54,552 bases of DNA from the IMG/VR virus record IMGVR_UViG_3300015610_000939. One strand, given 5' to 3'. The stretch comes from an uncultured virus (IMG/VR IMGVR_UViG_3300015610_000939) (taxonomy: Duplodnaviria > Heunggongvirae > Uroviricota > Caudoviricetes). A model generated the notes under the pieces. That model worked only from the letters and a program-made list of their open reading frames with translations, had not been told where the DNA came from and did not search any database. Both the position numbers and the translations under genes were made by a program. This document shows, one piece after another, positions 11,581 through 53,126 of the stretch (within the stretch, counting starts at the first letter, position 1; the number at the start of each line of letters is the position of its first letter).

Positions 11581-11900
11581 GCTTCCTTGTCCAGTTTTGC
11601 GAACAAGGCTTCTACCCCAAAGGTGATTTGATCCTCGTAGATCACCTTCCAAATTCTCTGTCGGAACAAAGCGGGTAGAAGCCTGACGCCATTTTCTTTG
11701 AAGAATAGCGTCTTTTCTTCCGCAGTCAACCTCTGGACGAGAAAAACGTTGATCGTTCCAACTGTTCGCCAAAGATCAAGCTCAACCAACTCCCCAGGAG
11801 ACCAAGTGAGTTCCTTGCTCTTACGAACAGCAATTCGCCAGTCATAAGCATGGATGCCCTTGAAATGCAAAATTTGGTCACCTGTGAGGATTAACGGCAT
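11577..11900 (-). CDS. hypothetical protein
   Basis: 107 aa ORF filling the operon. Confidence 0.5.
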   Translation of the reverse strand: MPLILTGDQILHFKGIHAYDWRIAVRKSKELTWSPGELVELDLWRTVGTINVFLVQRLTAEEKTLFFKENGVRLLPALFRQRIWKVIYEDQITFGVEALFAKLDKEA

Positions 11901-12676
11901 ACCAACTCATCCCATCGGGCCTTGATCATCTGGGCAAACTTAGCATGGTCGATGCCATAGTTTCCGCAGGAGAAGCCTTCGTTTGTCTCGACAATGACGA
12001 GTTGCTTGGAATGCCCCGTGACCTTGCGAGCAACATCAAGGCAGAAACCTGCTGGTTGGTTCTTGTAAGCCTTCAACATCTCTCCGATCAAGGCGTGCTC
12101 GCGTGGGGTAAGCGAGGGGCTGGAATCTTCCACAGAACGAATGCCAACAGAACGAATGCCAACAATCTTCCCTTCCACAACGTAGCAGCGAAACTCCTCT
12201 GTGAGGTTCACAACCTCTTGACAAAGAAGTCGATAGTTCTTGGGAAGACCACTCAAAATGGAAGACCAGCCATCGTACACTGTGTGACCTGAGAAATCCT
12301 TTTGGAAGTCCAATGGTTTGACGAAAACCTTGGCTGCCGCCTTCTTTTGGACCTCTCCGACCGTGGAGTGCCAAATCTTCCTCCCAGCGAACTCCATGAG
12401 CTCGTTTGGGATGTCGACGTTCTTGGGTTCAGGAACTCCAAGGTATCGGAGAGCTGCTCGGACAGACTGTACAGAACCACGAACTGGGGTTTCTTTGGCT
12501 ACTCCGACCTTCTTGCACCAGTTCTTCTCCTGGGAGTTGTATCCCTTCACCTGAAAGCCAAGAGCCTTGAAACCTTTGGCTGCTGAGTCACAACTGTCGC
12601 TCCAGTAGGCAATGCCGGTACTGTAGAACCCGTTGGTACCACTCTTCTGGACGATTGCAATTGGTGATTTCCTCAT
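11891..12676 (-). CDS. ATP-grasp domain protein (DUF4343/R2K-like)
   Basis: VFVKP...K.FSG, QEVVN...EFRCYV..GKI, LDV, IVETN.GFS.G.YG motifs. Confidence 0.75.
   Translation of the reverse strand: MRKSPIAIVQKSGTNGFYSTGIAYWSDSCDSAAKGFKALGFQVKGYNSQEKNWCKKVGVAKETPVRGSVQSVRAALRYLGVPEPKNVDIPNELMEFAGRKIWHSTVGEVQKKAAAKVFVKPLDFQKDFSGHTVYDGWSSILSGLPKNYRLLCQEVVNLTEEFRCYVVEGKIVGIRSVGIRSVEDSSPSLTPREHALIGEMLKAYKNQPAGFCLDVARKVTGHSKQLVIVETNEGFSCGNYGIDHAKFAQMIKARWDELVCR
12132..12164. repeat. 15-bp tandem duplication inside the ATP-grasp gene
   Basis: ACAGAACGAATGCCA twice, giving VGIRSVGIRS. Confidence 0.85.
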
Positions 12677-18388: not shown

Positions 18389-19627
18389 TCAACCCTTGAC
18401 GCACAAGACCTGCTTGAGTGTGTGCACAACCTCGACAAGGTCTGCCTGAGCTGCCATGACAGCGTCGATGTCCTTGTAGCATGCAGGAGTTTCGTCGATC
18501 ACGTCCTCATCCTTCCGACATTCGATGCCGCTGGTTGCCAGCTTGTGGTCTTCCAGGGAGAAGGTCTTCTTGGCTTCCGTACGGGACATGACTCGGCCAG
18601 CTCCATGGGAGCAAGAATCGAAGGACTCTGGATTCCCAAGCCCACGAACGATGTAGGAGCGAGCTCCCATCGAACCTGGGATGATGCCAAGCATTCCCTT
18701 GGAAGCCCGGACGGCACCCTTGCGGGTCACCAGGACACTCTCACCGAAGTGAGTCTCCCTGGAGACGTAGTTGTGGTGGCAGTTGACGGCTTCCATTTCT
18801 GCACTGAAAGGAGGGATTCCCTTGGTTTCACGGATTGCCTTGAGAACCCGGCCCATCATGAGCATGCGGTTCGTTCGAGCATACTCCTGTGCCCACTCTA
18901 CAGCGTGGCAGTAGTCATCGAAGAGAGTGGTTCCCTCAGAGAGGTAAGCCAAGTCCTGGTCAAGGAGATTGATGTGGAACTTCTTCATCTCCTCCTTTGC
19001 CTGGGAAATGAAGTAGGAACCGATGGAGTTCCCGACACCACGGGAACCAGAGTGCAGCATGACCCACACGTTCTGGTTCTCATCAAGGCAGACCTCGATG
19101 AAGTGGTTTCCTGTCCCGAGCGAGCAAAGCTGCTTGAGGCCACGAAGATCGTTCTGACGGAACACCTTTGGGTGCTTGTCAACGATCTGCTTCAACCCAG
19201 GTTGCATCTTCAACCAAGCAGCTTCCACCTCTTCAGGAGCCTGTCCCCAAGCTCCACGATCGTTCGCACCGCCATTGTCGGTACGACCATGAGGAACATT
19301 CTCCTCAATAAGCGAACGCATCTCAGCGAGGCTCACAGGAAGGTCCGAAGCCTTGAGGCTCGTGCGAATGCTAATAACACCGCAACCTAAATCGACACCA
19401 ACGCAAGCTGGGATCACAGCACCCTTCGTTGGGATCACAGACCCCACAGTAGAGCCCTTTCCTGCATGAACATCTGGCATGATTGCGATGTGCTTGTGGA
19501 TAAACGGGAGGGAGGCCATCTTGCTGACTTGCTGGCGTGCCTCATCCTCGAACTTGACACCCTTGACCCAAGCCTTCGCTCCGACCTTACCACCCGTCTC
19601 GATCCACTCGTACTTCTGTTCCGTCAT
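18389..19627 (-). CDS. rtcB: RtcB 3'-phosphate/5'-OH RNA ligase
   Basis: MPDVHAGKG, GVDLGCG, LGTGNHFIE, HSGSRG, CHHNY, TRKGA, IPGSMG, SHGAGR, DETPACYK motifs all present. Confidence 0.97.
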   Translation of the reverse strand: MTEQKYEWIETGGKVGAKAWVKGVKFEDEARQQVSKMASLPFIHKHIAIMPDVHAGKGSTVGSVIPTKGAVIPACVGVDLGCGVISIRTSLKASDLPVSLAEMRSLIEENVPHGRTDNGGANDRGAWGQAPEEVEAAWLKMQPGLKQIVDKHPKVFRQNDLRGLKQLCSLGTGNHFIEVCLDENQNVWVMLHSGSRGVGNSIGSYFISQAKEEMKKFHINLLDQDLAYLSEGTTLFDDYCHAVEWAQEYARTNRMLMMGRVLKAIRETKGIPPFSAEMEAVNCHHNYVSRETHFGESVLVTRKGAVRASKGMLGIIPGSMGARSYIVRGLGNPESFDSCSHGAGRVMSRTEAKKTFSLEDHKLATSGIECRKDEDVIDETPACYKDIDAVMAAQADLVEVVHTLKQVLCVKG

Positions 19628-25157: not shown

Positions 25158-25469
25158 GTGATCATCTTGCCCCCAATCCACCTTTCTCCAGGTCAGAGAG
25201 TGCTCGTCAAACGACTGTTGGACAGCTCTACACTGGAAAAGTGGTTCGAGGTAATACCACAACCGACAAATGCCAGAGCGGTAGGTAATGTCGGTGTAGT
25301 GATTCAGGTCTTCAAGCCGCAATACTACACGTCCGACTGCAACTGGATCGTTGAGGTCTATCAGTATGATGACAAGCAAACAACCTTCTACATTCCAGAG
25401 GAGCTCGTTGCTTTGGTTGTGACTCCAGCTCTACGAAGAGCTGGGATGAAGGATAGGAAGTTCAAGTGA
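25158..25469 (+). CDS. hypothetical protein
   Basis: 103 aa, GTG start. Confidence 0.5.
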   Translation: MIILPPIHLSPGQRVLVKRLLDSSTLEKWFEVIPQPTNARAVGNVGVVIQVFKPQYYTSDCNWIVEVYQYDDKQTTFYIPEELVALVVTPALRRAGMKDRKFK

Positions 25470-25909
25470 GAGTTCCAAAGTTCAATGGGAGGTTCAAGTT
25501 CTTGAGCAACTTTGAGCCATGCGAGGTTACGTTTGAGGGTGTAACCTACCCAAGCACGGAGCATGCCTACCAAGCTGCCAAGACACTCAATCCAAAGATC
25601 CGGGCTCTCTTCTTGCTTCCCAGCGTAACAGCCGGGAAGGCCAAGAGGATGGCGAAGACGATGAAGGTTAGGGAGGATTGGAATGACGTTCGGGTCGGTG
25701 TGATGGAAGGTCTTCTCCGACAGAAGTTCGCCCCTGGGACATCCTTGGCGCTTGAGTTGGCAGTCCTCAAGGACTACGACATCTGTGAGGGCAACTACTG
25801 GCATGACAATTTTTGGGGCTCCTGCACTTGCGCTAAGTGTGCGGATAAAGGAGAGAATGTGCTGGGCAAGCTCTTGATGAAGTTGAGGGATGAGCTCCTG
25901 TCAACCTGA
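25466..25909 (+). CDS. NADAR (YbiA-like) family protein
   Basis: FLSNF..C.V..EG..YPSTEHAYQAAK, REDW...R..VM..LL.QKF, EGN.W.D.FWG, GENVLGKLLM.LR. Confidence 0.92.
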   Translation: MRVPKFNGRFKFLSNFEPCEVTFEGVTYPSTEHAYQAAKTLNPKIRALFLLPSVTAGKAKRMAKTMKVREDWNDVRVGVMEGLLRQKFAPGTSLALELAVLKDYDICEGNYWHDNFWGSCTCAKCADKGENVLGKLLMKLRDELLST

Positions 25910-40054: not shown

Positions 40055-40179
40055 AGAAATGTGANNCACTCCTACGTTTAGGAATTTGAACAAAGGGAGT
40101 GGGCGAGCTTACCGCCGAAAAAATAGCTGTACCTGATAGGCAGGGTTGGAAGTTCAAGTCTTCTCTACAGCTCCGACAA

Positions 40180-40989: not shown

Positions 40990-41027
40990 AGCAGCGACAC
41001 AGGTTCAATTCCTGTCGGTTACCGTAT

Positions 41028-41292
41028 GGGACCGTAGTTCAGTGGTAGAATAACTGCGCGTTTTCTGGAGTAGAACCTCTATTGGGCAAATTGGGAAGGG
41101 TATGCCTACTTCCTTGTGAGAGATCGGGAAACTGGTCTTCTCTACGAGGTTCACGGTGGCCACTGTTCGTGCAATGGTTTCGAAGATCAATGGGGACCTG
41201 AGATCGCATCAAAGGAATACTTGCTCTCCGACCACTGGCGAGAGAGGAACAATCAAGAAATGAAGCAGTTCGTAACAGAGCTGTTCAACTGA
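41028..41292 (+). pseudogene. tRNA 5' half fused to a 5'-truncated ORF remnant
   Basis: GGGACCG-TA-GTTC-AGTGGTA-GAAT, then a startless frame ...WEGYAYFLVRDRETGLLYEVHGGHCSCNGFEDQWGPE...LFN*. Confidence 0.55.
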
Positions 41293-43424: not shown

Positions 43425-43498
43425 GTCCCGGTATGCCGCCTGACTTCTAATCAGGAGAAAGCTAATGGATCATGCAGGTTCGACCCCTGTCCGGGACG
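43425..43498 (+). tRNA. non-canonical D-armless tRNA-Arg(TCT)
   Basis: GTCCCGG/CCGGGAC, 7-nt linker TATGCCG, CCTGA-CTTCTAA-TCAGG, 18-nt variable region, GCAGG-TTCGACC-CCTGT. Confidence 0.75.
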
Positions 43499-43625
43499 CA
43501 AATGCAATTTACTCTGCAAAACAACTCTTGTTTTGCAAAAACTTGTGGGAGTTCAAATCTCCCCGGAGAGGCCAATACAACGATCCACTTCTTTTCCACC
43601 TTGCACTTCGGAATAGGAACTATCT

Positions 43626-44660: not shown

Positions 44661-45285
44661 CTGATTGAGAACAAAGTGTTTCCGGCTTCAGTAAAAAGCC
44701 GGTGTCGCAGCGGACGTACCGCTGCTGGTGGAGGGCCGTAAAAAGCCCCCTGATGCCCTGGGATTGCGAGAGTCACCTAAGCGGTGATAGGCCCAGGGAT
44801 GGAGTTGAGGTGATGCCCGTAGGTAGAATCTGGACGGTAACCAATCCGATAGCCAGGGGACGATGGCTACAACATCTCAGCGAAAGGTCACCGAAAGGTG
44901 CAAGACCCGTACCGTGGATTTGCTGCACGGTTGTTTCTTAAAACCTATCGGGTAGCCAGCTAAACTGGCGAAGAGCCTTTGAAGCGAGATAGGGATGTTG
45001 GATGGCAGAAGGAACACTCCAACAAGTCGCTAATCCGACTCAAAAGAAACTCTAGGGTCTTGGCAAGATTCCTCAGCCAAAGATGTAAGGCAGTAAAGGC
45101 CGAAATCGACCCATGCGTTGAAAAACGAGAGTAAAGGAGACTGGCTACCTAACGGTAGTATCCGCCCAAGGAATCGTGGCGAGCGGAGAACAGGATGACG
45201 AGCAGGGAATATGTAACCCTGTAGGGTGACAACCAGCGAAGTAAGATGCGAGATAAACCCTCGTAGGAGTGCTTCGGAGATAGTC
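44660..45285 (+). ncRNA. large structured ncRNA candidate (GOLLD/ROOL-like size and context)
   Basis: ~625 nt with no credible ORF and more than 12 hairpins, inside the tRNA array after a boxA-like site. Confidence 0.6.
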
Positions 45286-45289
45286 AAAT

Positions 45290-45362
45290 GGACCTTTGGT
45301 GTAGCAGGTGCGCACGCTAGCCTGAAGAACTTGAGGTCGCGGGTCGGTACCGCGAGGGTCCA
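45290..45362 (+). tRNA. tRNA-Phe(GAA), weak anticodon stem
   Basis: GGACCTT/AGGGTCC, loop CTGAAGA. Confidence 0.7.
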
Positions 45363-45452
45363 CTGTTGATCTTCCCCCTTGACGGGGCAGGAAGATGAGT
45401 TAGAGTGAGGGCATCCAAGGAACACTTGGAACCGGTCTCTGACAACAAAATT

Positions 45453-45564
45453 CGTTCAGTAACCCAAATGGTGGGCAGTCCAAAAGACTGTGATGCACCA
45501 CGAGTAGAGGTGCTGCTCCTAGCGGGGGCAGAAGTTCTCGGTGAAAATCCGAGCTGAGCGACCA
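45453..45564 (+). tRNA. tRNA-like RNA with D-loop hairpin insertion, anticodon ambiguous (TAG/AGC)
   Basis: CGTTCAG/CTGAGCG-ACCA, T arm CTCGG-TGAAAAT-CCGAG. Confidence 0.55.
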
Positions 45565-45566
45565 AT

Positions 45567-45641
45567 AGGGTCATAGTGAAATGGCATCATGCTGGATTCC
45601 AAATCCATGCGATGGAAGTTCGAGTCTTCCTGGCCCTGCCA
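45567..45641 (+). tRNA. tRNA-Trp(CCA)
   Basis: TGGA-TTCCAAA-TCCA, GCCA end. Confidence 0.85.
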
Positions 45642-45642
45642 T

Positions 45643-45727
45643 AGGTGAGTCATCTAACGACTAGGATATAGGTTGTCTTCGCAAGAAACAGCTTAGAATA
45701 GAGGTTCAATTCCTTTCTCACCTACCA
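45643..45727 (+). ncRNA. anticodon-less tRNA-like RNA (GCAA-capped arm)
   Basis: AGGTGAG/CTCACCT-ACCA, D and T arms intact, extended arm TAGGTTGT-C-TTC-GCAA-GAA-ACAGCTTA. Confidence 0.65.
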
Positions 45728-45728
45728 A

Positions 45729-45803
45729 GGCCCGCTAGCTCAACGGTTTCAGAGCGGCGATTTGTTAAGTCGATGTGTCCAGGTTCAAATCCTGGGCGGA
45801 CCG
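45729..45803 (+). tRNA. tRNA-Asn(GTT)
   Basis: CGAT-TTGTTAA-GTCG, normal D/T arms. Confidence 0.8.
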
Positions 45804-46026
45804 CTGATCAAGCGTCTAAGTTCTAGGTAAAAGTGGTAAGCGGATTGCAGCGTGACTGCAACGTAGAGAACTAAGCTCCCACTGCATTTAACCAAACGAG
45901 GAAGCAAGGCTTCCGAGGCCCTCAAGAAAGGGAATTAAACGAGATATCTTGCTCTGTCTCGAAGGTAACTTGCGCTAGCCGGATAGCCTCCGGGTGAGAA
46001 ATCACGTAGGTGAGACGCAAGAAAAT

Positions 46027-46117
46027 GCAATCGTGGTGACTATTGGTACGTGTCACACTGGTCTGTAAAACCAGTCCCCCTGGGTAAACATTGAAGGTTC
46101 AATTCCTTTCGATTGCA
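46027..46117 (+). tRNA. tRNA-Tyr(GTA)
   Basis: CTGGT-CTGTAAA-ACCAG, long variable arm. Confidence 0.85.
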
Positions 46118-46122
46118 CTAAC

Positions 46123-46194
46123 AGGCGTGTAGCTTAATGGAGAAGCACCTCGCTGATAACGGGGAGAGCGATGGTTCGATTCCATCTACGCCTA
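46123..46194 (+). tRNA. tRNA-Ile(GAT)
   Basis: CCTCG-CTGATAA-CGGGG. Confidence 0.9.
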
Positions 46195-46207
46195 CTAAAT
46201 GATTCAT

Positions 46208-46280
46208 GGGCTCGTAGCTCAATTGGGAGAGCACCTGACTTGCACTCAGGAGGTTGCCGGATCGTTCCCGGTCGGGTCCA
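46208..46280 (+). tRNA. tRNA-Ala(TGC)
   Basis: G3-U70 pair, CCTGA-CTTGCAC-TCAGG. Confidence 0.92.
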
Positions 46281-46348
46281 CTGATAATATCATAGTGGTT
46301 CACACTGAATTTGCATTGCAAACAAAGACAATTCCACTATGTTTCTAA

Positions 46349-46434
46349 GGGCGGGTAGCTCAGTCGGTAGAGCAGTTGGCGAGGGAGAAATCCCGACCCA
46401 ACCGCGCGGAGGTTCGATCCCTCCCCCTGACCCA
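46349..46434 (+). ncRNA. anticodon-less tRNA-like RNA (GAAA-capped arm)
   Basis: canonical D arm GCTC-AGTCGGTA-GAGC and T arm; GTTGG/CCAAC encloses GGGA-GAAA-TCCC. Confidence 0.65.
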
Positions 46435-46495
46435 CTAGACTTCCAGTCTTACAGTCTTACAACTGAATTCAGGAAGAAATCAAAGCATACAAAAA

Positions 46496-46572
46496 CGGGA
46501 TGTAGGTCAATCTGGTAGACCACTCGCTTTGGGAGCGAGGAGTTGAGAGTTCGAATCTCTCCATCCCGACCA
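46496..46572 (+). tRNA. tRNA-Pro(TGG)
   Basis: CTCGC-TTTGGGA-GCGAG, CCA. Confidence 0.93.
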
Positions 46573-46931
46573 AGCCCCTGCACATAAAGAGTACCACTGC
46601 GCGCTGGTGGACGAGGTGCAAGACCTTGCGGGGGCTCTGAGGATCACTCGTCGTGACAAAACTCAGTTGATGCTGTGCGTTCTTGACAGACGTGCGACAA
46701 CGTGTGATCCTCTAATATGCTCACCGAAAGGTAGAGTGACTCGCTGGGATAGAGTCAGCCCAACTCCCAGGTTTGAAAATACGGGGTTGATAAGGAGAAA
46801 GTCGTCCTTGGTTGGACTGCAAACAACCGAACCATGCGGACAAAACACCCGACTTGACACCTGGAGAGACAGGACGTAGATATTGGCCACTTCGCCTCTG
46901 TTGAAAAACATGCGCCCTAAGTGGTCGGTTT

Positions 46932-47004
46932 AGCCCTTTAGTTTTCTGGAGAAGGCACCTGCCTTACAAGCAGGAACAGACGAGTTCGATCCTCGTAGGG
47001 GCTA
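46932..47004 (+). tRNA. tRNA-Val(TAC)
   Basis: CCTGC-CTTACAA-GCAGG. Confidence 0.85.
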
Positions 47005-47014
47005 CTGTTCTTTT

Positions 47015-47089
47015 GGGTTCAAAGCATTAATGGTGATGCACTCGGCTCTTAACCGTGTGAACTCGGATCGTTACCGAGTGGACCCACCA
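47015..47089 (+). tRNA. tRNA-Lys(CTT)
   Basis: GGGTTCA/TGGACCC-ACCA, loop CTCTTAA. Confidence 0.88.
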
Positions 47090-47090
47090 C

Positions 47091-47144
47091 CCCAGCCCTT
47101 AGACGGCCGTCATTTCAGGCTCATGACCTGAAAGGCTGGGACCA
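47091..47144 (+). ncRNA. T-armless tRNA-Met(CAT)-like RNA
   Basis: CCCAGCC/GGCTGGG-ACCA and TTCAGG-CTCATGA-CCTGAA, no T arm. Confidence 0.55.
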
Positions 47145-47216
47145 AAGTTGGGTAGCTGCCCGTTGAGGGCAGTCAACCGTAGCCCTGGTGGGAGGCGAGA
47201 TATTCCACCGTTTCAT

Positions 47217-47294
47217 CGAAGTGTACCGACCCTGGCTCTTAACCAGGAGAATCGTAATTGGTTGCAAATGAGGGTTCGAGTCCCTCCGCTTCGA
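47217..47294 (+). tRNA. non-canonical D-armless tRNA-Lys(CTT)
   Basis: CGAAGTG/CGCTTCG, 7-nt linker TACCGAC, CCTGG-CTCTTAA-CCAGG, 22-nt variable region, GAGGG-TTCGAGT-CCCTC. Confidence 0.75.
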
Positions 47295-47621
47295 CCGCTT
47301 GTCATAAGGGTAATTGATATACCCGTTCTGTATGAGAGAAAGATGGAAGCGAAGTATCGGGCCTAAGCAACCCTGACTGCACGAGCTTGGTGCGGTTGAC
47401 TTTGTGGAAGTCTCATCGAGTGCAGTGAAGTGCCAAGAATGACTGGTAGGGTACCAGCCTACCAGTGCGTCACAGTGCTAGAAAGGAAGAAGGACGTTGC
47501 GTTCGTATGCACCCGATCTCTTCCAAGTTGTGGGTACCGGTCACTCACCTCCCCCGGTAGCGTTCGAAGGTGAATAATGAGACTGATAAAATCGCTTCGG
47601 CGGCAATGCCAAAGAAGCACT

Positions 47622-47693
47622 GGGCCTGTCGTCTAATAGCAAGGACAATCTGCTTCCCCGCAGACGATAGAGGTGCAACTCCTCTCGGGCCCA
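47622..47693 (+). tRNA. tRNA with non-7-nt anticodon loop, identity undetermined
   Basis: GGGCCTG/CGGGCCC, TCTGC-TTCCCC-GCAGA. Confidence 0.6.
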
Positions 47694-47835
47694 CCGGCAA
47701 AAAAGTCTACACTGAGAGTTTGAACAAACCTTGCAGTCTCCCATGATTGGTAAGCGCTTACTGGTCTAGGGGGGAATGCAGCGGAGCCAGCTCTCTGTGT
47801 AGATGGCGGCTCAAACGCGAGAGTCGTTTCAAAAC

Positions 47836-47907
47836 CAAGCATTCTAGCTCACCGGAAGAGCGCCTGAGTGATCGGGAGGTACGGGGTTCGACTCCCCGGA
47901 TGGTTGG
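47836..47907 (+). ncRNA. anticodon-less tRNA-like RNA (GTGA tetraloop)
   Basis: GCTC-ACCGGAA-GAGC, CCTGA-GTGA-TCGGG, CGGGG-TTCGACT-CCCCG. Confidence 0.6.
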
Positions 47908-47944
47908 CGATGAACAAAGCCGTATTTTCGCCCTACTTACTTCC

Positions 47945-48631
47945 ATGAAAAAGAGTGTTTTGGAAGCCTTGATCAAGGAAGCGATCCTGGAAGGTGTCAT
48001 GGATAATATGACAACCCAAATCTCCAGGTTGATCGTGAACCACATGAAGGCTTCCAAGGATTGGAGGAAGATCCCTCCCTTCGAAGCCGATGTTGGCTCG
48101 CTCAAGTTCAAGGCAATCTTTCAACCGTCCCAGGACGGTCTATTCCGCCTCAGAGGGGCTGCTTACGACCAGCTTGGGGAATTGGTCAAGGTGGCCATTG
48201 AAGTGCCCCGCAACGCCGACCTGAGCGGCCTGAGTGACTTCATTCCTTCCTTGAAGAATACCCTTCGGCATGAGCTGGAACATAGGCAGCAGGACAAGCG
48301 TTCGGGTTTCGAGCTTGGCCAAGCAAAGCCTCATGCCGTGGCAAAGGGTTCAATGGATGGTCCGTATCCCAAGGATGTTGGGGGAACTATTCAATCCGTC
48401 ATGGCCTACTACTTGCATCCCAAGGAAGTGGAAGCTTACGTGATGGGGGCTTACAAAGAGGCGAAGACCCGCAAGGCTCCGTTCTCCGATGTGCTCCGAA
48501 ACCAACTCATGGCAATTCACGATCAACTCCTTGGGGAGTTCGATGAAGTCCAGGCAGCCCAGGTAGCAAGATCTATCCAGCGTGCTTGGATGGAGTACAT
48601 CAAAGTGAGATTTCCTCGCAAGCAAGGTTGA
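47945..48631 (+). CDS. HExxH protein (putative zinc peptidase-like) with CTS-like N-terminus
   Basis: LRHELEH..Q and YY....EVEAYV motifs; MKKSVLEALIKEAILEG; TACTTA 5 nt upstream. Confidence 0.7.
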   Translation: MKKSVLEALIKEAILEGVMDNMTTQISRLIVNHMKASKDWRKIPPFEADVGSLKFKAIFQPSQDGLFRLRGAAYDQLGELVKVAIEVPRNADLSGLSDFIPSLKNTLRHELEHRQQDKRSGFELGQAKPHAVAKGSMDGPYPKDVGGTIQSVMAYYLHPKEVEAYVMGAYKEAKTRKAPFSDVLRNQLMAIHDQLLGEFDEVQAAQVARSIQRAWMEYIKVRFPRKQG

Positions 48632-48656
48632 CATTCAAGTGTCGCCCTCTTAGATT
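48628..48656 (+). promoter_or_regulatory. sigma70-type promoter for the tRNA-Met cluster
   Basis: TTGACA-N17-TAGATT. Confidence 0.65.
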
Positions 48657-48680
48657 GAGGGAGTAGCAAGAAACACCCAC

Positions 48681-48756
48681 AGCAGGGTAGAGCAGAAGTA
48701 GCTCGCTTGGCTCATAACCAAGAGGTCGTGGAGAGCATTTCCCACCCCTGCTACCA
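48681..48756 (+). tRNA. tRNA-Met(CAT), atypical T loop
   Basis: CTTGG-CTCATAA-CCAAG, CCA; T loop lacks TTC. Confidence 0.8.
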
Positions 48757-48849
48757 CAAACAGGATCATGAGTTTGCAAGGCCACCCGCCGAAAACGGGG
48801 CTTCCTATGAAGATAGAAAGCTGGCCTTCGTGTTAGAGTGATCGTTTAC

Positions 48850-48922
48850 TGCGGGATGGAGAAGAAGATTCTTGCCGGGTTCATACCCCGGAGACGTGGT
48901 TGAGCATTTCCCACTCCCGCAA
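48850..48922 (+). tRNA. tRNA-Met(CAT), initiator-like, atypical T loop
   Basis: CCGGG-TTCATAC-CCCGG (three G-C pairs). Confidence 0.7.
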
Positions 48923-49006
48923 CTGTTGTTCTCAATCGTGTTGTCTTGTGCATAAAACCGCATGGGGAAGCTCCTTTACGGAAGGTGCCTTAGCACTGGA
49001 AGGTAA

Positions 49007-49426
49007 TTGACAAACTGTTGGTCTCAGATCAAGGTCGTGCCAGCAGGGCATCTTGGGGAGCGTTACCCCAAGGGTAGGAAGGGCCGCAACAAACCATGGG
49101 AATTCTTCCACAGGATTGAGGACACTATGAACTACGCTGTTCGAGCTTTCGTTTTCAAGTGGACAGGTGGCAACCAGGAAGTCTTGGAGACGACACTTGA
49201 TGATCAGTCGATCATTGAGCAGTTCATCTACCGGGCTGTTGACCACGAGACCAACAGGAAGATTGCCGAGCAGTTTGGGAAGATCATCACCCAGGTGAAA
49301 GTGTTCCCAACGGAGAATCAAGGTTGGATGATCCTTGACAAGCACACAAAGCGTGTGCTACACAGGGACATCAAGAACAAGAGTGAAGTCGCCGAGCTGT
49401 GCCAGAAGCACGGTTACTTTGCGTAA
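49007..49426 (+). CDS. hypothetical protein
   Basis: 139 aa, TTG start after GGAAGG. Confidence 0.5.
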   Translation: MTNCWSQIKVVPAGHLGERYPKGRKGRNKPWEFFHRIEDTMNYAVRAFVFKWTGGNQEVLETTLDDQSIIEQFIYRAVDHETNRKIAEQFGKIITQVKVFPTENQGWMILDKHTKRVLHRDIKNKSEVAELCQKHGYFA

Positions 49427-49436
49427 CAAAGACTAC

Positions 49437-49532
49437 TGCGGGGTAGAGTAGAGGTGTCCTCGGGAAACTGGGGCGTAACTCACTTGGCTCATAACCAAGA
49501 GATCGTGGTGTTCGATTCCCACCCCCGCAACC
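49437..49532 (+). tRNA. tRNA-Met(CAT) with D-loop hairpin insertion
   Basis: TGCGGGG/CCCCGCA, CTTGG-CTCATAA-CCAAG; insert TGTCCTCGG-GAAA-CTGGGGCG. Confidence 0.75.
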
Positions 49533-49639
49533 GCAGCCATAGCTCAGCGAGATCAGAAGCTTGGTACCGAGTGGAAGGTCGATGGAAGAGCAACGGGTCT
49601 AGAATCCGTAGGTCAGACGTTCGACTCGTCTTGGCTGCT
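49533..49639 (+). tRNA. tRNA-like RNA with ~34-nt D-loop insertion; anticodon loop TCTAGAA
   Basis: GCAGCCA/TGGCTGC, ACGGG/TCCGT, AGACG-TTCGACT-CGTCT. Confidence 0.6.
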
Positions 49640-49645
49640 CCGCAT

Positions 49646-49719
49646 GCACCCATCTTCTAACGGTTCAGGAAACCACCCTTTCAAGGTGTGAAATACGGGT
49701 TCAAATCCCGTTGGGTGCG
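49646..49719 (+). tRNA. tRNA-Glu(TTC)
   Basis: CACC-CTTTCAA-GGTG. Confidence 0.85.
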
Positions 49720-50202
49720 CTACTTCTTCTTCTGGTACTCAACCTGATTGGCGTTCCAGACGACAATTTCCCGCAACTTTCCATTGAAGAACTGAAAGAT
49801 TGCGTCATACCCCTTGGACTGAGCCAAGTTCTTGACTTGAGTTCCGAGGTAACCTTTCTTCATTTCTTCCTTCTCAACGAAGGCTTCGGCCTTTGCTTGA
49901 TCGACTCCGAGCTGAACAAGGGCGTCCACCATAGGGTGGGTACGGTTGTTGTCGGTGTAAATCTTCAAGGGGTTATGGATTCTCAGGCGTGTCTGAACAA
50001 CCTGACCACCTGACTCAGCAGCATAATCCTGGGCAACATCCTTGATTGGGGTGAAGTAAGCGCCAGAACCAAGCGCTCCTCTGCCATTTGTCTTAACGGC
50101 CTTGACACCGTCCCAGGTACCACCATGGTATACGGGACCAATGTTGAAGTCGTTCTCGTCTTCCAAGAGCAAGGAGTAGATGCTGTACCAATGAGCACTC
50201 AT
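49720..50202 (-). CDS. ADP-ribosyltransferase-like protein (ART-PolyVal type)
   Basis: VYHGG, G.LGSGAYFTP....A..YA, L.I.NPL, GYDAI......EIVVW...Q (H-Y-E triad pattern). Confidence 0.75.
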   Translation of the reverse strand: MSAHWYSIYSLLLEDENDFNIGPVYHGGTWDGVKAVKTNGRGALGSGAYFTPIKDVAQDYAAESGGQVVQTRLRIHNPLKIYTDNNRTHPMVDALVQLGVDQAKAEAFVEKEEMKKGYLGTQVKNLAQSKGYDAIFQFFNGKLREIVVWNANQVEYQKKK

Positions 50203-50549
50203 GGAGCTAAATACTACGACATTGAGGAAGATTTCCTACGGTCTTTGGATGACATTTCCGACCACAAGCTGATTATTGTCAACGAGAGAAGTCCGATTAT
50301 TTCTCCAACGTTGCCCCTTGCAGCTTTCCACAACGCTTGCTTGATTGTCCAAAAAACCTGTGATCGGTTTAGGACGACTGGTTTGTTTACGGTCAAGTGG
50401 ATGGTTTGGAAGAACAGGTTTGGGCCTTCAAATGTAAGCCTCAGCCTCAAAGCACGACAGGTTCTCTTTGACCGCTATGTCGTCCTTGCCGAGCGTTCTG
50501 GTCGCGCAACCCCACTTAACATCACTGAAGTCAGGGCTAAGTTGCTGAC

Positions 50550-50849
50550 ATGAAGACAGAGTACATCCAGCTTCCCGAAGGGCTCGACCTCAACAAGTTG
50601 TTTGCGCACCGGGTTGCGTTGCGCACCATGTCGCGCGCTGACTTCATCCACGAACATGGTTCAGGCACCCTCCGCAAGAACACCAAGCTCGGCATGGACA
50701 ACAACCGCCAGTACCTTGATGAGCGAACCGCTTACGAGTTTCTCCTCGGGGTTCTACTGGGTGGACATCTACAAGCTGGTCAAAGACCTGAATTCGTATC
50801 TTCTTCACAAACACGGTTGACACTCCCGAGAAGGGGTGTTACCTTCTGA
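50550..50849 (+). CDS. hypothetical protein, possibly truncated or frameshifted
   Basis: 99 aa; 3' end may continue in another frame ending at 50820. Confidence 0.4.
   Translation: MKTEYIQLPEGLDLNKLFAHRVALRTMSRADFIHEHGSGTLRKNTKLGMDNNRQYLDERTAYEFLLGVLLGGHLQAGQRPEFVSSSQTRLTLPRRGVTF
50817..50845 (+). promoter_or_regulatory. sigma70-type promoter for tRNA-Glu
   Basis: TTGACA-N17-TACCTT. Confidence 0.6.
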
Positions 50850-50859
50850 ACATCGAAAC

Positions 50860-50932
50860 GGTCCTATCTTCTAAAGGTACAGGAATCCTGATTTTCACTC
50901 AGGCAATGAGGGTTCGATTCCCTCTAGGATCA
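50860..50932 (+). tRNA. tRNA-Glu(TTC)
   Basis: CCTGA-TTTTCAC-TCAGG. Confidence 0.88.
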
Positions 50933-51059
50933 CTGTCTGCTATGCCTATAAGGCGACCGAGAGGGCAGAAAGGTACCCCGCACCACCTATCCAAGTTTGC
51001 GGGAGGTCGTTGAACACCTACGATTCAACCTGCCGCCCTGTCGGTCACAGGGTAATCCT

Positions 51060-51136
51060 GGTCCCATCTTCTAACAGGTTCAGGAACCCTGATTCTCAAT
51101 CAGGTAATGCGGGTTCAAGCCCCGCTGGGATCACCA
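51060..51136 (+). tRNA. tRNA-Glu(CTC)
   Basis: CCTGA-TTCTCAA-TCAGG, CCA. Confidence 0.9.
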
Positions 51137-51137
51137 T

Positions 51138-51210
51138 GGACCATTTGCAATCTGGTGATTGCAGCAAGCTGTTAACTTGCCCAAGCAGGGTTCGATTCCC
51201 TGGTGGTTCG
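51138..51210 (+). tRNA. tRNA-Asn(GTT)
   Basis: GCAAG-CTGTTAA-CTTGC. Confidence 0.85.
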
Positions 51211-51214
51211 TCAA

Positions 51215-51556
51215 ATGTCAATCAAAGATATCAAACCAACCCAATCGGAGCTCGAATGCGGAATTGAGTTCACTCCCGAAGAACGGCTTCGAGAGGTTGC
51301 TGCGGAGATTTTCCTGAAATGCCAGGATGAATGGAAGGAGCGCATCCTCCATCATCTCTCGAACGAAGAGATTCAAGAGCTCCTGAAGGATGAAGACTTC
51401 TGCAAGCACAACGAACTGTCTCTTGCGCAGGTTGCAAGGACTGAACTTCGTTGTCGCGCCTCACTTGCGCGTGCAATCCAAGTTGGAACGCCCTACTGCA
51501 TCTATCACGACTGCAAAACAACTGACTGCCCTGACGGGCATTTTGACGACGAGTAA
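51215..51556 (+). CDS. hypothetical protein
   Basis: 113 aa. Confidence 0.5.
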   Translation: MSIKDIKPTQSELECGIEFTPEERLREVAAEIFLKCQDEWKERILHHLSNEEIQELLKDEDFCKHNELSLAQVARTELRCRASLARAIQVGTPYCIYHDCKTTDCPDGHFDDE

Positions 51557-51560
51557 AGCC

Positions 51561-51857
51561 ATGGAAAACGAAGTGTTCTCTCTTATTCTCAGCAAGTATG
51601 TGCCGTATGAGGGATACGATGTGAATTTTCTTGGAACCTTCCGCTCCATCGAGGGCCTGTTGGATGGTTTCGCAGCTTGGGTGGAGGCAGATAACCACCC
51701 TGCTTTGGCGAAGGAACTTTCTGGACTCAAGACCGTTGACCAAGTCAACGAGGTTTTGGACCGAAACAGGCGGGAATTTGGGTATTCCTACGATTCTGTG
51801 TATATTGAAGTCACGGCACACAAGATTGGCGAAGTCATCTTGCCGAATGCCATGTGA
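51561..51857 (+). CDS. hypothetical protein
   Basis: 98 aa from MENEVF. Confidence 0.55.
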   Translation: MENEVFSLILSKYVPYEGYDVNFLGTFRSIEGLLDGFAAWVEADNHPALAKELSGLKTVDQVNEVLDRNRREFGYSYDSVYIEVTAHKIGEVILPNAM

Positions 51858-52069
51858 TGGTTACACTGTCTGAGAAGGATAGAAACAACATGCTCACAGA
51901 ACAAGACATTGACGACCTCCGAAACACCAAGACTGAACAGGAATGGGACTCCGTCTGCGACAGGATCAAGGCTGCGCACAAAGGCAGCTATCCTGCGGAC
52001 TGGTACCCCCGTGTGCTTGCCTCGGGATTTGCTGCTACTGTCTTTCGCGGGTGGAAGAACAATGGCTAA
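51854..52069 (+). CDS. hypothetical protein
   Basis: 71 aa; probable start 51890 after AAGGA. Confidence 0.55.
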   Translation: MMVTLSEKDRNNMLTEQDIDDLRNTKTEQEWDSVCDRIKAAHKGSYPADWYPRVLASGFAATVFRGWKNNG

Positions 52070-52334
52070 AATTGGAACTGCTGACTGCAAGCTCGCGATC
52101 GTCCAACACATTCAGAACAACCCAGGGATCGTCGCACGAGAGTTTTGCGATGGTCAAGGGAAGCCAAATACTCCCTTCAAGGCGACGGCAGATGGCAGGG
52201 TACTCTCTGCGGTTGATTTCGAAAAGCCAGCTCAGAAAGTGAAAAGCTGGAAGAGGTGCGAAAAGCAACGTACCACCGGCGGCGGACGCTATTGTGTACA
52301 AGGTTCCAGTTGGAGCAACGATGCGGATGTTTGA
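52062..52334 (+). CDS. hypothetical protein (may continue via frameshift to 52440)
   Basis: 90 aa from MAKIGTADCK. Confidence 0.45.
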   Translation: MAKIGTADCKLAIVQHIQNNPGIVAREFCDGQGKPNTPFKATADGRVLSAVDFEKPAQKVKSWKRCEKQRTTGGGRYCVQGSSWSNDADV

Positions 52335-52782
52335 GTGTTCTGCTAGCAATGAAGCTCAGAACACCTACGAAGATCAGCTCCGTGCCTACACATACGACGA
52401 TGGTAATACGATTCTGCGTGTCGTCGTAGCAGGCGAGTAGCAACCTGCAAGGATAAACTTTACGGAGACCCCTCCATTATACGGGATGCTTCCATGTTGA
52501 TTTCGGTTGACATGGGAGCAAACGGCTCTAAGGTAGAACCGATGCTTGGTTGGCCTCCAATTCTGGCCTATCCCCTCAAGGGCAAGCGGGAGCTAATACG
52601 GGTGCGAATCCTGGGTCCCCTCCAATTGTCGTCAACTTCCGGGGTTGACAGCACTTCTGATTGATGCTTACAGAAGAGAAACAAGCAGAGCATATCGTCA
52701 CCATACAAACAGGGTAGCCTGGGTCGAAAACTGTATGGCGTGGAGTAAGCTCGGAAGAGCGAGTGCGTCTGAAACAGGCAAA

Positions 52783-52853
52783 TAGATGGTAGCTTAATGG
52801 AAAAGCACCCTGCGGAAAGCAGGAAGATGTGGGTTCGAGTCCCACTAGTCGAG
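52783..52853 (+). ncRNA. degenerate tRNA-like RNA with GGAAA loop
   Basis: D and T arms good, CCTGC-GGAAA-GCAGG, poor acceptor. Confidence 0.5.
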
Positions 52854-52913
52854 CATCACTCAACAAACACGCAGCTACGTCAAGGCTGCTTCAAGAAGAA
52901 AGCTGGATTGGCA

Positions 52914-53126
52914 ATGAAGACCGTCTCTCGTCTCTACCCTTGGATCTCGGTGTCCTTCGATGACACTCTTGAGGACATCCAGGAGCTCAGTCATCACTGT
53001 GAGCACTGTGGGGCAACAGGAACGTCTCTGATTGACGACAACCTGACGGGAGTGAAGGGATTTGAGGCGACTCACGGAGCTTGCAGAAAGCAAAAAACGC
53101 AGCCCAGCAAGTTGACAGTGCAGTGA
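52914..53126 (+). CDS. small Cys/His protein
   Basis: 70 aa, HCEHCG...F..TH..C. Confidence 0.45.
   Translation: MKTVSRLYPWISVSFDDTLEDIQELSHHCEHCGATGTSLIDDNLTGVKGFEATHGACRKQKTQPSKLTVQ

What the first reader, a model, noticed from the sequence alone, without database searches (positions are those of the whole stretch)
45643..47907. Family of anticodon-less tRNA mimics whose anticodon loop is replaced by GNRA-capped hairpins
Three genes keep the D arm, T arm and acceptor stem but cap the anticodon arm with a GNRA tetraloop: 45643-45727 (TTC-GCAA-GAA on an extended stem, ACCA end), 46349-46434 (GGGA-GAAA-TCCC) and 47836-47907 (CCTGA-GTGA-TCGGG). A fourth, 52783-52853, has a GGAAA loop. Independent convergence on stable tetraloops is not what random decay produces. 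Inference: non-decoding elbow/acceptor mimics that act as decoys for tRNA-targeting toxins, as processing spacers for RNase P/Z, or as amino-acid donors outside the ribosome.
Basis: partly seen in the sequence, partly recalled or inferred. Interest (0 to 1): 0.75.

Follow-up and report, generated by a model that had tools for sequence, protein, structure and literature searches.

The report
Anticodon-less tRNA-shaped phage genes
A large uncultured phage carries, inside its tRNA gene array, three tRNA-shaped genes that cannot read codons because a closed hairpin sits where the anticodon loop should be; one of them is visibly kept in shape by evolution, so it probably serves a purpose other than translation.

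Summary
45643-45727 (c1), 46349-46434 (c2) and 47836-47907 (c3) score as tRNA in Rfam (35.0, 34.2 and 29.7 bits; cut-off 29). Their anticodon loops are 11, 18 and 4 nt, each closed by GCAA, GAAA or GUGA. The fourth, 52783-52853 (c4), has an arm of normal length with loop CGGAAAG and a poor acceptor stem (5 of 7 pairs), so it is not of this kind.

Contigs of close relatives (about 94-97% identical) also lack normal loops. c2 keeps its extended GAAA-capped arm, with three two-sided compensatory changes in the outer stem. c1 and c3 keep their bodies, but in one relative their caps differ by small insertions that destroy the GNRA loop.

The four are not homologous to each other, and I found no homologues in 50,697 phage records, IMG/VR or GTDB genomes. 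My reading: these are non-decoding tRNA bodies made with the tRNA operon. c2 is under selection. c1 and c3 are either selected only for the body or are young pseudogenes. GNRA convergence under selection, and any role as decoy, processing signal or amino-acid donor, remain untested. Expression is not shown.

The parts
45643..45727 (+). c1: tRNA-shaped gene with an 11-nt anticodon loop closed as UUC-GCAA-GAA. It has a perfect acceptor stem and an encoded ACCA, and lies 1 nt from tRNA-Trp (45567-45641) and 1 nt from tRNA-Asn (45729-45804).
45670..45694 (+). c1 anticodon arm: 7-bp stem, bulged C, 3-bp inner stem and GCAA cap. Removing 4 nt gives CUUCGAA, a normal Arg(UCG) loop. The X11 relative has +C after 45676 and +T after 45684.
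46349..46434 (+). c2: tRNA-shaped gene with a canonical D arm, T arm and 5-nt variable loop (G15/C48, G18G19 and a UUCGAUC T loop are all present), and an acceptor stem with a bulged A.
46375..46402 (+). c2 extended arm: outer stem 46375-79/46398-402, a 3x3 internal loop CGA/GAC (C.C plus tandem G.A), inner stem GGGA/UCCC and a GAAA cap. Of the 13 differences to the X8 relative over 46208-46441, 8 lie here; 6 of them form 3 compensatory pairs.
47836..47907 (+). c3: tRNA-shaped gene with the arm CCUGA-GUGA-UCGGG and an imperfect acceptor stem. Its 3' end overlaps or abuts the start of a conserved HExxH protein gene (ATG at 47900 or, by alignment, 47945).
47863..47876 (+). c3 arm: 5 bp plus GUGA. 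The X11 relative has +CA after 47870 (a 6-nt loop). X8 and X15 cover the place without that insertion.
52783..52853 (+). c4: degenerate tRNA with a normal-length arm (loop CGGAAAG, G33) and 5/7 acceptor pairs. Not of the anticodon-less kind. It lies 60 nt upstream of a small ORF whose likely start is 52914.
47622..47695 (+). A further aberrant member of the array: a good cloverleaf with a 6-nt anticodon loop UUCCCC. Its D arm resembles that of c1.

Best explanation
c1, c2 and c3 are genes derived from three different tRNA genes of the phage's own tRNA array. They keep the parts read by RNase P, the 3'-end and CCA enzymes and many tRNA-binding proteins: the acceptor stem, the T arm and most of the D arm. 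The anticodon loop has become a closed hairpin, so they cannot pair with a codon.

I infer that they are transcribed with the neighbouring tRNAs and cut out like tRNAs, giving stable non-decoding 'tRNA bodies'. c2 is held in shape by selection: a rod-like arm of 5 bp, a tandem G.A internal loop, 3-4 bp and a GAAA cap. For c1 and c3, only the body seems to be held. Their caps change by small insertions between near-identical strains, so the GNRA loop itself is not required there.

The role is not shown. My preferred reading is that they work through the body, either as a competitor or stand-in substrate for proteins that bind tRNA away from the anticodon, or as cutting signals in the tRNA/mRNA transcript.

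Shown: the structures, their reproducibility, their retention in relatives and the compensatory change in c2. Inferred: transcription, processing and role.
For: Rfam tRNA scores above the cut-off for 4 of 4 elements, and cloverleaf minimum-energy folds for c1-c3.

c1 is packed 1 nt from tRNA-Trp and 1 nt from tRNA-Asn on the same strand, with 7/7 acceptor pairs and an encoded ACCA.

Relatives. In X8, X11 and X15, c2 differs at 46377/46400, 46378/46399 and 46379/46398, giving U-A>G-C, G-C>U.G and G-C>C-G. All three pairs are kept, the GAAA cap and the CGA/GAC loop are unchanged, and 46383/46394 turns G-C into U.U. Applying only the 5'-side or only the 3'-side changes destroys the cloverleaf fold, while applying both keeps it. 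8 of the 13 differences of the X8 contig over 46208-46441 lie in this 28-nt arm.

Contigs of X8, X11 and X15 cover c2 and c3. In the same strains whole canonical tRNA genes are missing from joined contigs: Asn 45729-45804 in X11 (skip 45722>45816), and most of Pro 46496-46572 is skipped by contigs of X8 and X15, where it is not known whether other letters stand in its place.

Of the 11 indel events in the 4,529 nt of X11's listed pieces, 3 fall in the 39 nt of the c1 and c3 arms (0.1 expected). The caps change while the bodies stay alignable.

Other odd tRNA shapes in this phage group are clearly functional. A D-armless tRNA-Arg type shows 8 of 17 pairs with two-sided changes among 3 sequences. 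A distant relative holds a canonical tRNA body with an extended arm of the same plan as c2 (L006 11599-11683, Rfam 54 bits).
Against: Only two alleles of each element are known, and the relatives are very close, so apart from c2 the conservation is not statistically informative.

The comparison tables are truncated (329 substitution rows and 33 indel rows are not shown), so I cannot see all changes in c1 and c3.

c1's loop looks like a fresh 4-nt insertion into a palindromic Arg(UCG) loop. Together with further insertions in X11, that fits a decaying gene.

The acceptor stems of c2 and c3 are imperfect, and the D loop of c1 lacks G18G19.

I found no homologues of c1-c3 outside the near-identical strains.

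No evidence of transcription or of discrete ends. The one RNA-library run laid (X15) gives contigs only, and these may be DNA.

The three arms differ in length and design, which argues against one shared molecular partner for the arm.
Confidence: 0.5

Rival explanations
1. Plain pseudogenes. These would be tRNA genes disabled by small indels in the anticodon loop, not yet purged from a very large phage genome, with tetraloops arising by chance or from the purine-rich 3' side of anticodon loops.
For: c1 equals an Arg(UCG) loop plus 4 nt. The caps of c1 and c3 differ by indels in X11 and lose the GNRA loop. c4 and 47622-47695 are ordinary-looking damaged tRNAs. The acceptor stems of c2, c3 and c4 are imperfect. 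Strains gain and lose whole tRNA genes freely.
Against: c2 has three compensatory pairs, with an unchanged cap and internal loop. c2 and c3 are covered in all three relatives laid, while canonical tRNAs are missing from them. Indels cluster in the caps, not across the bodies (3 of 11 events in 0.9% of the aligned length).
Confidence: 0.3
2. Cutting signals, like the t-elements of plant mitochondria. tRNA-shaped modules kept so that RNase P and the 3' endonuclease separate tRNAs from mRNAs in long transcripts. On this reading c3 and c4 would define the 5' ends of the downstream mRNAs.
For: c3 ends at 47907, and the conserved start of the next gene is at 47945 (or 47900). c4 ends 60 nt before a small ORF. 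c3 carries the GGTTCRANYCC T-arm motif that was used to find t-elements (PMC1920247, passages read).
Against: c1 and c2 lie between tRNAs that would be cut out anyway. In distant relatives the same protein gene follows an ordinary tRNA-Lys at about 170 nt, with no c3-like element seen. No transcript ends are known.
Confidence: 0.2
3. Decoys or sponges for host tRNA-directed defence proteins that read the acceptor end or the elbow, with the arm cap evolving fast in an arms race.
For: Differences between strains pile up in the arms of c1-c3. The window also encodes RtcB RNA ligase, a NADAR domain protein and an ADP-ribosyltransferase, which are conflict-type genes. Phage tRNAs are known counter-defence tools (PMC10264068, PMC11464382, PMC11555353: search listings and abstract starts only).
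Against: The known cases use decoding tRNAs that resist cleavage, not non-decoding ones. Nucleases that read the anticodon loop would not bind a capped stem. No partner is identified, and no search of mine found a paper on such decoys.
Confidence: 0.15
4. Working tRNAs after RNA-level repair. The extra 4 nt (c1) or 11 nt (c2) would be cut out and the ends joined, for example by the phage's RtcB.
For: RtcB lies at 18389-19627 (Pfam 1.4e-126). Removing 4 nt from c1 gives a perfect Arg(UCG) loop, and no canonical tRNA-Arg is called in the window.
Against: No excision of c2's insert gives a loop with U33. c3 is too short rather than too long. Rfam reports no group I intron. c2's two 3-nt strands face each other and are not staggered as in the archaeal bulge-helix-bulge motif (my reading of the sequence; the motif is recalled). 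X11's c1 has a 13-nt loop. No splicing endonuclease was found among the 80 ORFs scanned against Pfam.
Confidence: 0.04

Closest known systems
tRNA pseudogenes and tRNA gene fragments in prokaryotic and phage genomes (van der Gulik et al. 2023, PMC9897764; search listing and abstract start only)
   Same: Derived from tRNA genes, sit among tRNA genes, score weakly as tRNA and cannot decode.
   Different: c2 shows compensatory evolution and a conserved designed-looking arm. c2 and c3 are covered in every relative laid, while intact tRNAs are missing from some.
Plant mitochondrial t-elements (Forner et al. 2007, PMC1920247; passages read)
   Same: Non-canonical cloverleaves with a conserved T arm, placed at mRNA ends, cut by RNase P/Z and released as small RNAs. 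The position of c3 (and c4) before an ORF fits this.
   Different: Different kingdom. c1 and c2 are flanked by tRNAs, not mRNAs. No end mapping exists here.
mascRNA (Rfam RF01684)
   Same: A tRNA-like small RNA with a reduced anticodon arm, released by RNase P/Z.
   Different: A eukaryotic nuclear lncRNA product. The only match here is to c3's T arm, at 16.4 bits against a cut-off of 42.5.
Bacterial Y RNA-like YrlA tRNA mimics (Chen et al. 2014, PMC4201824; listing and abstract start only; Rfam RF02553)
   Same: Non-decoding RNAs that copy the D/T elbow and acceptor of tRNA. Some are phage-encoded (recalled).
   Different: In YrlA the open ends lie on the Ro-binding stem and the 'acceptor' is closed (recalled), which is the opposite topology. 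No RF02553 hit at c1-c4. No Ro/TROVE domain among the 80 ORFs scanned.
T4 RNAC and RNAD, small stable RNAs of unknown function (PMC9697503, passage read; their place in the T4 tRNA region is recalled)
   Same: Phage small RNAs made beside the phage tRNAs, with function still unknown.
   Different: Longer RNAs. No model was available to test likeness, and no sequence comparison was done.
Nuclease-resistant phage tRNAs with changed anticodon loops (van den Berg et al. 2023, PMC10264068; listing and abstract start only)
   Same: Phage tRNA-array genes whose anticodon loops depart from the host's and vary quickly.
   Different: Those tRNAs still decode. c1-c3 cannot.

Membership tests
tRNA (Rfam RF00005) | Covariance-model score at or above the gathering cut-off (29 bits) | tested here: met
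   c1 35.0, c2 34.2 over model positions 5-66 only, c3 29.7, c4 33.6. c1 and c3 were not listed in the 15-kb search.
tRNA (working decoder) | 5-bp anticodon stem with a 7-nt loop, U33 and a free anticodon | tested here: not met
   Loops of 11 nt (c1), 18 nt (c2) and 4 nt (c3), each closed into a hairpin. c4 has 7 nt but G33 and a possible C32-G38 pair.
tRNA (working decoder) | 7-bp acceptor stem | tested here: inconclusive
   c1 7/7. c2 7 bp only with a bulged A. c3 5/7 in the Rfam register, or 8 pairs with one mismatch in the energy fold. c4 5/7.
tRNA pseudogene | No constraint: stems decay without compensation, and relatives keep the intact gene | tested here: inconclusive
   Not met for c2 (3 compensatory pairs). 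No relative with an intact loop was seen for any of c1-c3. For c1 and c3 the data are too thin to tell.
t-element-like processing signal | tRNA-like fold with the T-arm motif GGTTCRANYCC whose ends coincide with mRNA ends | tested here: inconclusive
   The motif is present in c3 (GGTTCGACTCC) and c2 (GGTTCGATCCC). c3 and c4 lie just upstream of ORFs. Transcript ends cannot be tested with contigs.
t-element-like processing signal | Cleavage by RNase P / RNase Z | not testable with these tools
   Needs an enzyme assay or end mapping.
Intron-bearing tRNA (group I or bulge-helix-bulge) | A recognisable intron (group I core, or two 3-nt bulges staggered by a 4-bp helix) whose removal leaves a normal loop | tested here: not met
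   No intron family in Rfam. The inserts are 4 and 11 nt. c2's unpaired triplets face each other. Only c1 gives a normal loop after excision.
YrlA / Y RNA-like tRNA mimic (RF02553) | Model match and a linked Ro (TROVE) protein | tested here: not met
   The only RF02553 row is 40996-41051 at 19.8 bits against a cut-off of 69; none lies at c1-c4. No TROVE domain among the 80 ORFs scanned.
tmRNA | tRNA-like domain plus a tag reading frame | tested here: not met
   ARAGORN found no tmRNA in the window. No RF00023 hit in the window.

The most novel reading that the evidence does not exclude
Large phages make a class of non-decoding 'tRNA bodies': full acceptor/elbow mimics whose anticodon arm is sealed and evolves fast. 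These would soak up or mislead host defence proteins that act on tRNA away from the anticodon, for example enzymes that modify or cut the acceptor end. c2's arm, with a tandem G.A loop and a GAAA cap kept across alleles whose outer stem has three pairs replaced on both sides, would be a specific protein- or RNA-docking rod.
Probability: 0.12. Interest if true: 0.8.

Novelty: new variant of a known kind. Interest (0 to 1): 0.5.

Why it matters
Phage tRNA arrays are usually read as codon supplements or as spare parts against tRNA-cutting defences. Conserved array members that cannot decode would point to a third use of the tRNA shape in phage-host conflict or in phage RNA processing. They would also warn annotators that 'pseudo-tRNA' calls in huge phages can hide selected RNAs. 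If the elements are only decaying genes, the finding is ordinary, but it still documents how quickly tRNA arrays turn over between near-identical strains.

Tried and rejected
**Searches for relatives that found nothing**
- blastn of 45500-48000 against 50,697 phage records found only generic tRNA-Pro, tRNA-Ala and tRNA-Lys matches, and none at c1-c3.
- IMG/VR gave 0 hits for the exact c1 arm and for two c2 patterns.
- Single-protein searches in IMG/VR found no relative.
- In GTDB genomes the protein search found none. The c2 pattern gave 18 hits, all unrelated (Streptomyces and other coding or non-tRNA DNA).
- The metagenome scan with the neighbouring protein family returned only 4 distant loci (28-40% identity). 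The closer relatives seen as proteins (P0001-P0005, 67-98% identity) could not be fetched as DNA.
- No whole genome is held for the window.

**Coverage in the laid runs**
No listed X8 or X15 piece covers c1. I draw nothing from that.

**Other analyses without result**
- A high RNA-library depth at 52508-52768 is not expression. To my recollection the stretch around 52737-52775 resembles an Illumina adapter, and it attracts foreign contigs at 80% likeness.
- Promoter and terminator scans matched the shuffled expectation (11 against 9.3; 21 against 15.8).
- I considered reading the caps as leftover anticodons (GCAA as Cys, GAAA as Phe, GUGA as His). The bodies show no matching identity marks or paralogues, so I dropped this.
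- The neighbouring HExxH protein has no Pfam or PHROG family. Its AlphaFold model has mean pLDDT 76.8 and no PDB fold match at E<=0.001. The Atlas shows only viral hypothetical clusters.
- No other notes of this scan exist for this window or for sequence like it.
Full report
**What the window is.** It is a stretch of an uncultured tailed phage.
- PHROG and Pfam hits include a tail-fibre-like protein, RtcB RNA ligase (18389-19627, minus strand, Pfam 1.4e-126), an Amidase_2 domain (typical of phage lysins; that reading is mine), HNH endonucleases, a NADAR protein and an ADP-ribosyltransferase.
- From about 39.9 kb to the window's end there is a dense tRNA array on the plus strand. ARAGORN tRNAs and Rfam gives 30 tRNA matches at the gathering cut-off.
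- The same DNA occurs in wastewater, activated-sludge and freshwater runs of 11 studies.
- The only related virus records I could reach are two IMG/VR fragments: G001 (189 kb, estimated 48% complete) and G002 (49 kb, 12% complete, 44 tRNA matches). This points to a very large phage.

**The observation.**
- *c1 (45643-45727)* sits 1 nt after tRNA-Trp and 1 nt before tRNA-Asn. It has 7/7 acceptor pairs, discriminator A and an encoded CCA. Its anticodon stem GUUGU/ACAGC holds 11 nt, CUUCGCAAGAA, which fold into bulged C + UUC-GCAA-GAA. Its D loop lacks the usual GG. Rfam scores it at 35.0 bits when searched alone. Removing four letters leaves CUUCGAA, a textbook Arg(UCG) loop. Because UUCGAA is a palindrome, any 4-nt insert at its centre makes a hairpin (and my own reading).
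- *c2 (46349-46434)* has a canonical D arm, variable loop and T arm. Its stem GUUGG/CCAAC encloses CGA-GGGA-GAAA-UCCC-GAC. Its acceptor stem forms 7 pairs only with a bulged A.
- *c3 (47836-47907)* has the arm CCUGA-GUGA-UCGGG, three letters short of a normal arm. It scores 29.7 bits and has two mismatches in the acceptor stem.
- *c4 (52783-52853)* aligns to the tRNA model without any indel. Its loop is the 7-nt CGGAAAG and its acceptor stem has only 5 of 7 pairs. It is a damaged ordinary tRNA, not an anticodon-less one.
- A fifth aberrant gene, 47622-47695, has a 6-nt loop.
- Contigs of run X6, from a study other than the likely source, match c1 and c2 without a single difference. The odd loops are therefore not assembly errors.

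**What close relatives show.** I laid contigs of four runs on 45200-53000 at 80% likeness or more. X6 is the same strain. X8, X11 and X15 carry relatives that differ by about 3-6% in the aligned pieces.

*c2.* All three relatives differ from the window at eight places, and all eight lie in the arm.
- 46377/46400 changes U-A to G-C.
- 46378/46399 changes G-C to U.G.
- 46379/46398 changes G-C to C-G.
- 46383/46394 changes G-C to U.U.

So three of the five outer-stem pairs were replaced on both sides and still pair. The GAAA cap, the inner GGA/UCC pairs and the CGA/GAC internal loop are untouched. X8's contig shows 13 differences over 46208-46441, so 8 of 13 lie in 28 of 234 nt.

In a script I applied the observed changes by position. 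With all changes the cloverleaf remains the best fold. With only the 5'-side or only the 3'-side stem changes it is lost. By my rough estimate, six changes among ten stem positions would form three complete, still-pairing pairs by chance about once in a thousand. Only two alleles are known, and a recombination patch from an unseen homologue could have delivered the changes together. Even then, both alleles keep the same design.

*c1 and c3.*
- X11 has one extra C after 45676 and one extra T after 45684. This gives c1 a 13-nt loop, a 2-nt bulge and a 5-nt cap.
- X11 has an extra CA after 47870, which gives c3 a 6-nt loop.
- X8 and X15 cover c3 without that insertion.

The GNRA caps of c1 and c3 are therefore not fixed, but no relative has a normal loop either. 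In X11's listed pieces (4,529 nt) there are 11 indel events. Three fall in the 39 nt of these two arms, against about 0.1 expected. I made this count after seeing the data.

The tables are cut (329 substitution rows and 33 indel rows are not shown), so I cannot count substitutions in the bodies of c1 and c3.

*Turnover of canonical tRNA genes.*
- X11's contig joins 45722 to 45816 and so lacks tRNA-Asn.
- X8 and X15 contigs skip 46441 to 46566 (most of tRNA-Pro). It is not known whether other letters stand there.
- X11 joins 49531 to 49645 and lacks a 109-nt tRNA-like gene.

c2 and c3 are covered in all three relatives. Whole ordinary tRNA genes are thus lost between these strains, while the capped elements stay.

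**Wider relatives.** c1-c3 have no detectable homologue in G001, G002 or the other loci, nor in the public collections I could scan. They also do not resemble each other or any tRNA of the group beyond generic parts, so they are not one gene family.

The group does hold many odd tRNA shapes.
- One type is clearly functional: a D-armless tRNA-Arg type (window 43425-43500, L006 4258-4337, L009 5935-6013). Among 3 sequences, 8 of its 17 pairs are changed on both sides and kept.
- G002 also has a canonical tRNA body (Rfam 54 bits) with an extended arm on the same plan as c2: 5 bp, a small internal loop and 4 bp, here with a 7-nt loop (L006 11599-11683).
- G002 also has an element with a UCC-GCAA-GGA mini-hairpin at the anticodon position (L006 28-113).

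This raises my prior that unusual members of these arrays can be working RNAs.

**Is GNRA more than chance?** All three 4-nt caps in the window are GNRA, where a random tetraloop would be GNRA 1 time in 32. Three cautions apply.
- Two of the three caps are not GNRA in X11.
- The 3' side of a normal anticodon loop is purine-37 and often A-38 (recalled), so loops shortened from the 5' side tend to end in R-A.

I rate selection for a stable closed arm as likely for c2 and open for c1 and c3.

**How it most likely works.** The parts that are kept are those that RNase P, the 3'-end enzymes, CCA-adding enzyme and many tRNA-binding proteins recognise. These are the acceptor stem and T arm in all three, and in c2 also G18G19, G15/C48 and a canonical T loop. 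I infer co-transcription with the flanking tRNAs and tRNA-like processing into stable RNAs that cannot enter decoding. The role is not shown.
- A processing-signal role, as for plant mitochondrial t-elements (PMC1920247, passages read), fits the places of c3 and c4 just upstream of ORFs, but not those of c1 and c2.
- A decoy role fits the fast-changing arms and the conflict-type neighbourhood (RtcB, NADAR, ADP-ribosyltransferase). It could only work against proteins that bind tRNA away from the anticodon.
- Splicing back to a working tRNA is possible on paper only for c1.
- The plain pseudogene reading remains strong for c1, c3 and c4.

**Literature.** Four full-text searches found no paper describing phage-encoded anticodon-less, hairpin-capped tRNA mimics. 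They did find the known uses of decoding phage tRNAs against tRNA-cutting defences (listings and abstract starts only), the jumbo-phage review on RNA repair (PMC7824862, passages), t-elements (passages), and T4 RNAC and RNAD, described there as 'of yet unknown functions' (PMC9697503, passage). Two unchecked notes of this scan describe similar capped or anticodon-less tRNA remnants in other phages and read them as disabled copies.

**Verdict.** These are real, reproducible, non-decoding tRNA-shaped genes. One (c2) is under structural selection and two (c1, c3) are of open status. One (c4) was misread. They are not a single family, and their function is unproven.

Noticed in passing
window 43425-43500; L006 4258-4337; L009 5935-6013; also window 47217-47297: tRNA-Arg genes (anticodons UCU, UCU, ACG) without a D arm. 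They have a 7-bp acceptor stem, a 7-nt linker, an anticodon arm, then about 20 nt holding a D-loop-like AGCUAAUGG, then the T arm. 8 of 17 pairs are changed on both sides and kept among 3 sequences. 47217-47297 (Lys CUU loop) has a similar D-armless build. I know D-armless tRNAs only from animal mitochondria (recalled).
   Followed up: partly
L006 11599-11683: A canonical tRNA body (Rfam 54 bits) with an extended anticodon arm: 5 bp, internal loop CGC/UAGA, 4 bp and a 7-nt loop CAAAACA. This is the same plan as c2, in a distant relative.
   Followed up: partly
L005 6486-6580 and L006 5538-5631: Two 95-nt CCA-ended tRNA-like RNAs with a 32-34-nt insert at the anticodon position and an identical 29-nt core. 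No counterpart was found in the window by blastn.
   Followed up: partly
window 49533-49641: A 109-nt tRNA-like gene with a perfect acceptor stem and T arm, and what looks like a large insertion (about 40 nt) inside the D loop. It is absent from the X11 relative (contig joins 49531 to 49645).
   Followed up: no
window 45722-45816, 46441-46566: Near-identical strains differ by whole canonical tRNA genes. tRNA-Asn is missing in X11, and most of tRNA-Pro(UGG) is skipped in X8 and X15.
   Followed up: partly
window 49646-49720: A good tRNA (Rfam 57.1 bits) with anticodon UCA, called 'SeC' by ARAGORN. It would read UGA. Whether the phage or its host recodes UGA was not examined.
   Followed up: no
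window 47900/47945-48631; L001 2234-2944; L005 10001-10708; L006 10001-10696: A protein family with an invariant HExxH motif, conserved inside the tRNA arrays (order Val-Lys-protein-Met in the window, L001 and L005). It has no Pfam or PHROG family and no PDB fold match.
   Followed up: partly
window 18389-19627 (-), 25466-25909 (+), 49720-50202 (-), 11891-12676 (-): RtcB RNA ligase, a NADAR domain protein, an ART-PolyVal ADP-ribosyltransferase and an R2K ATP-grasp protein. This set is typical of RNA-repair and NAD/ADP-ribose conflict systems.
   Followed up: no
window about 52737-52775: A stretch that I recall as resembling an Illumina adapter. At 80% likeness it draws very deep foreign contigs from an RNA library, which gives a false peak of 'expression'.
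   Followed up: yes
window 45290-45363: A weak tRNA-Phe(GAA) (Rfam 38.2 bits) with a C.A mismatch at the last anticodon-stem pair. The relatives carry G at 45329, which restores the pair.
   Followed up: partly
window 40065-40066: Two N letters in the window, just after tRNA-Thr(UGU).
   Followed up: no
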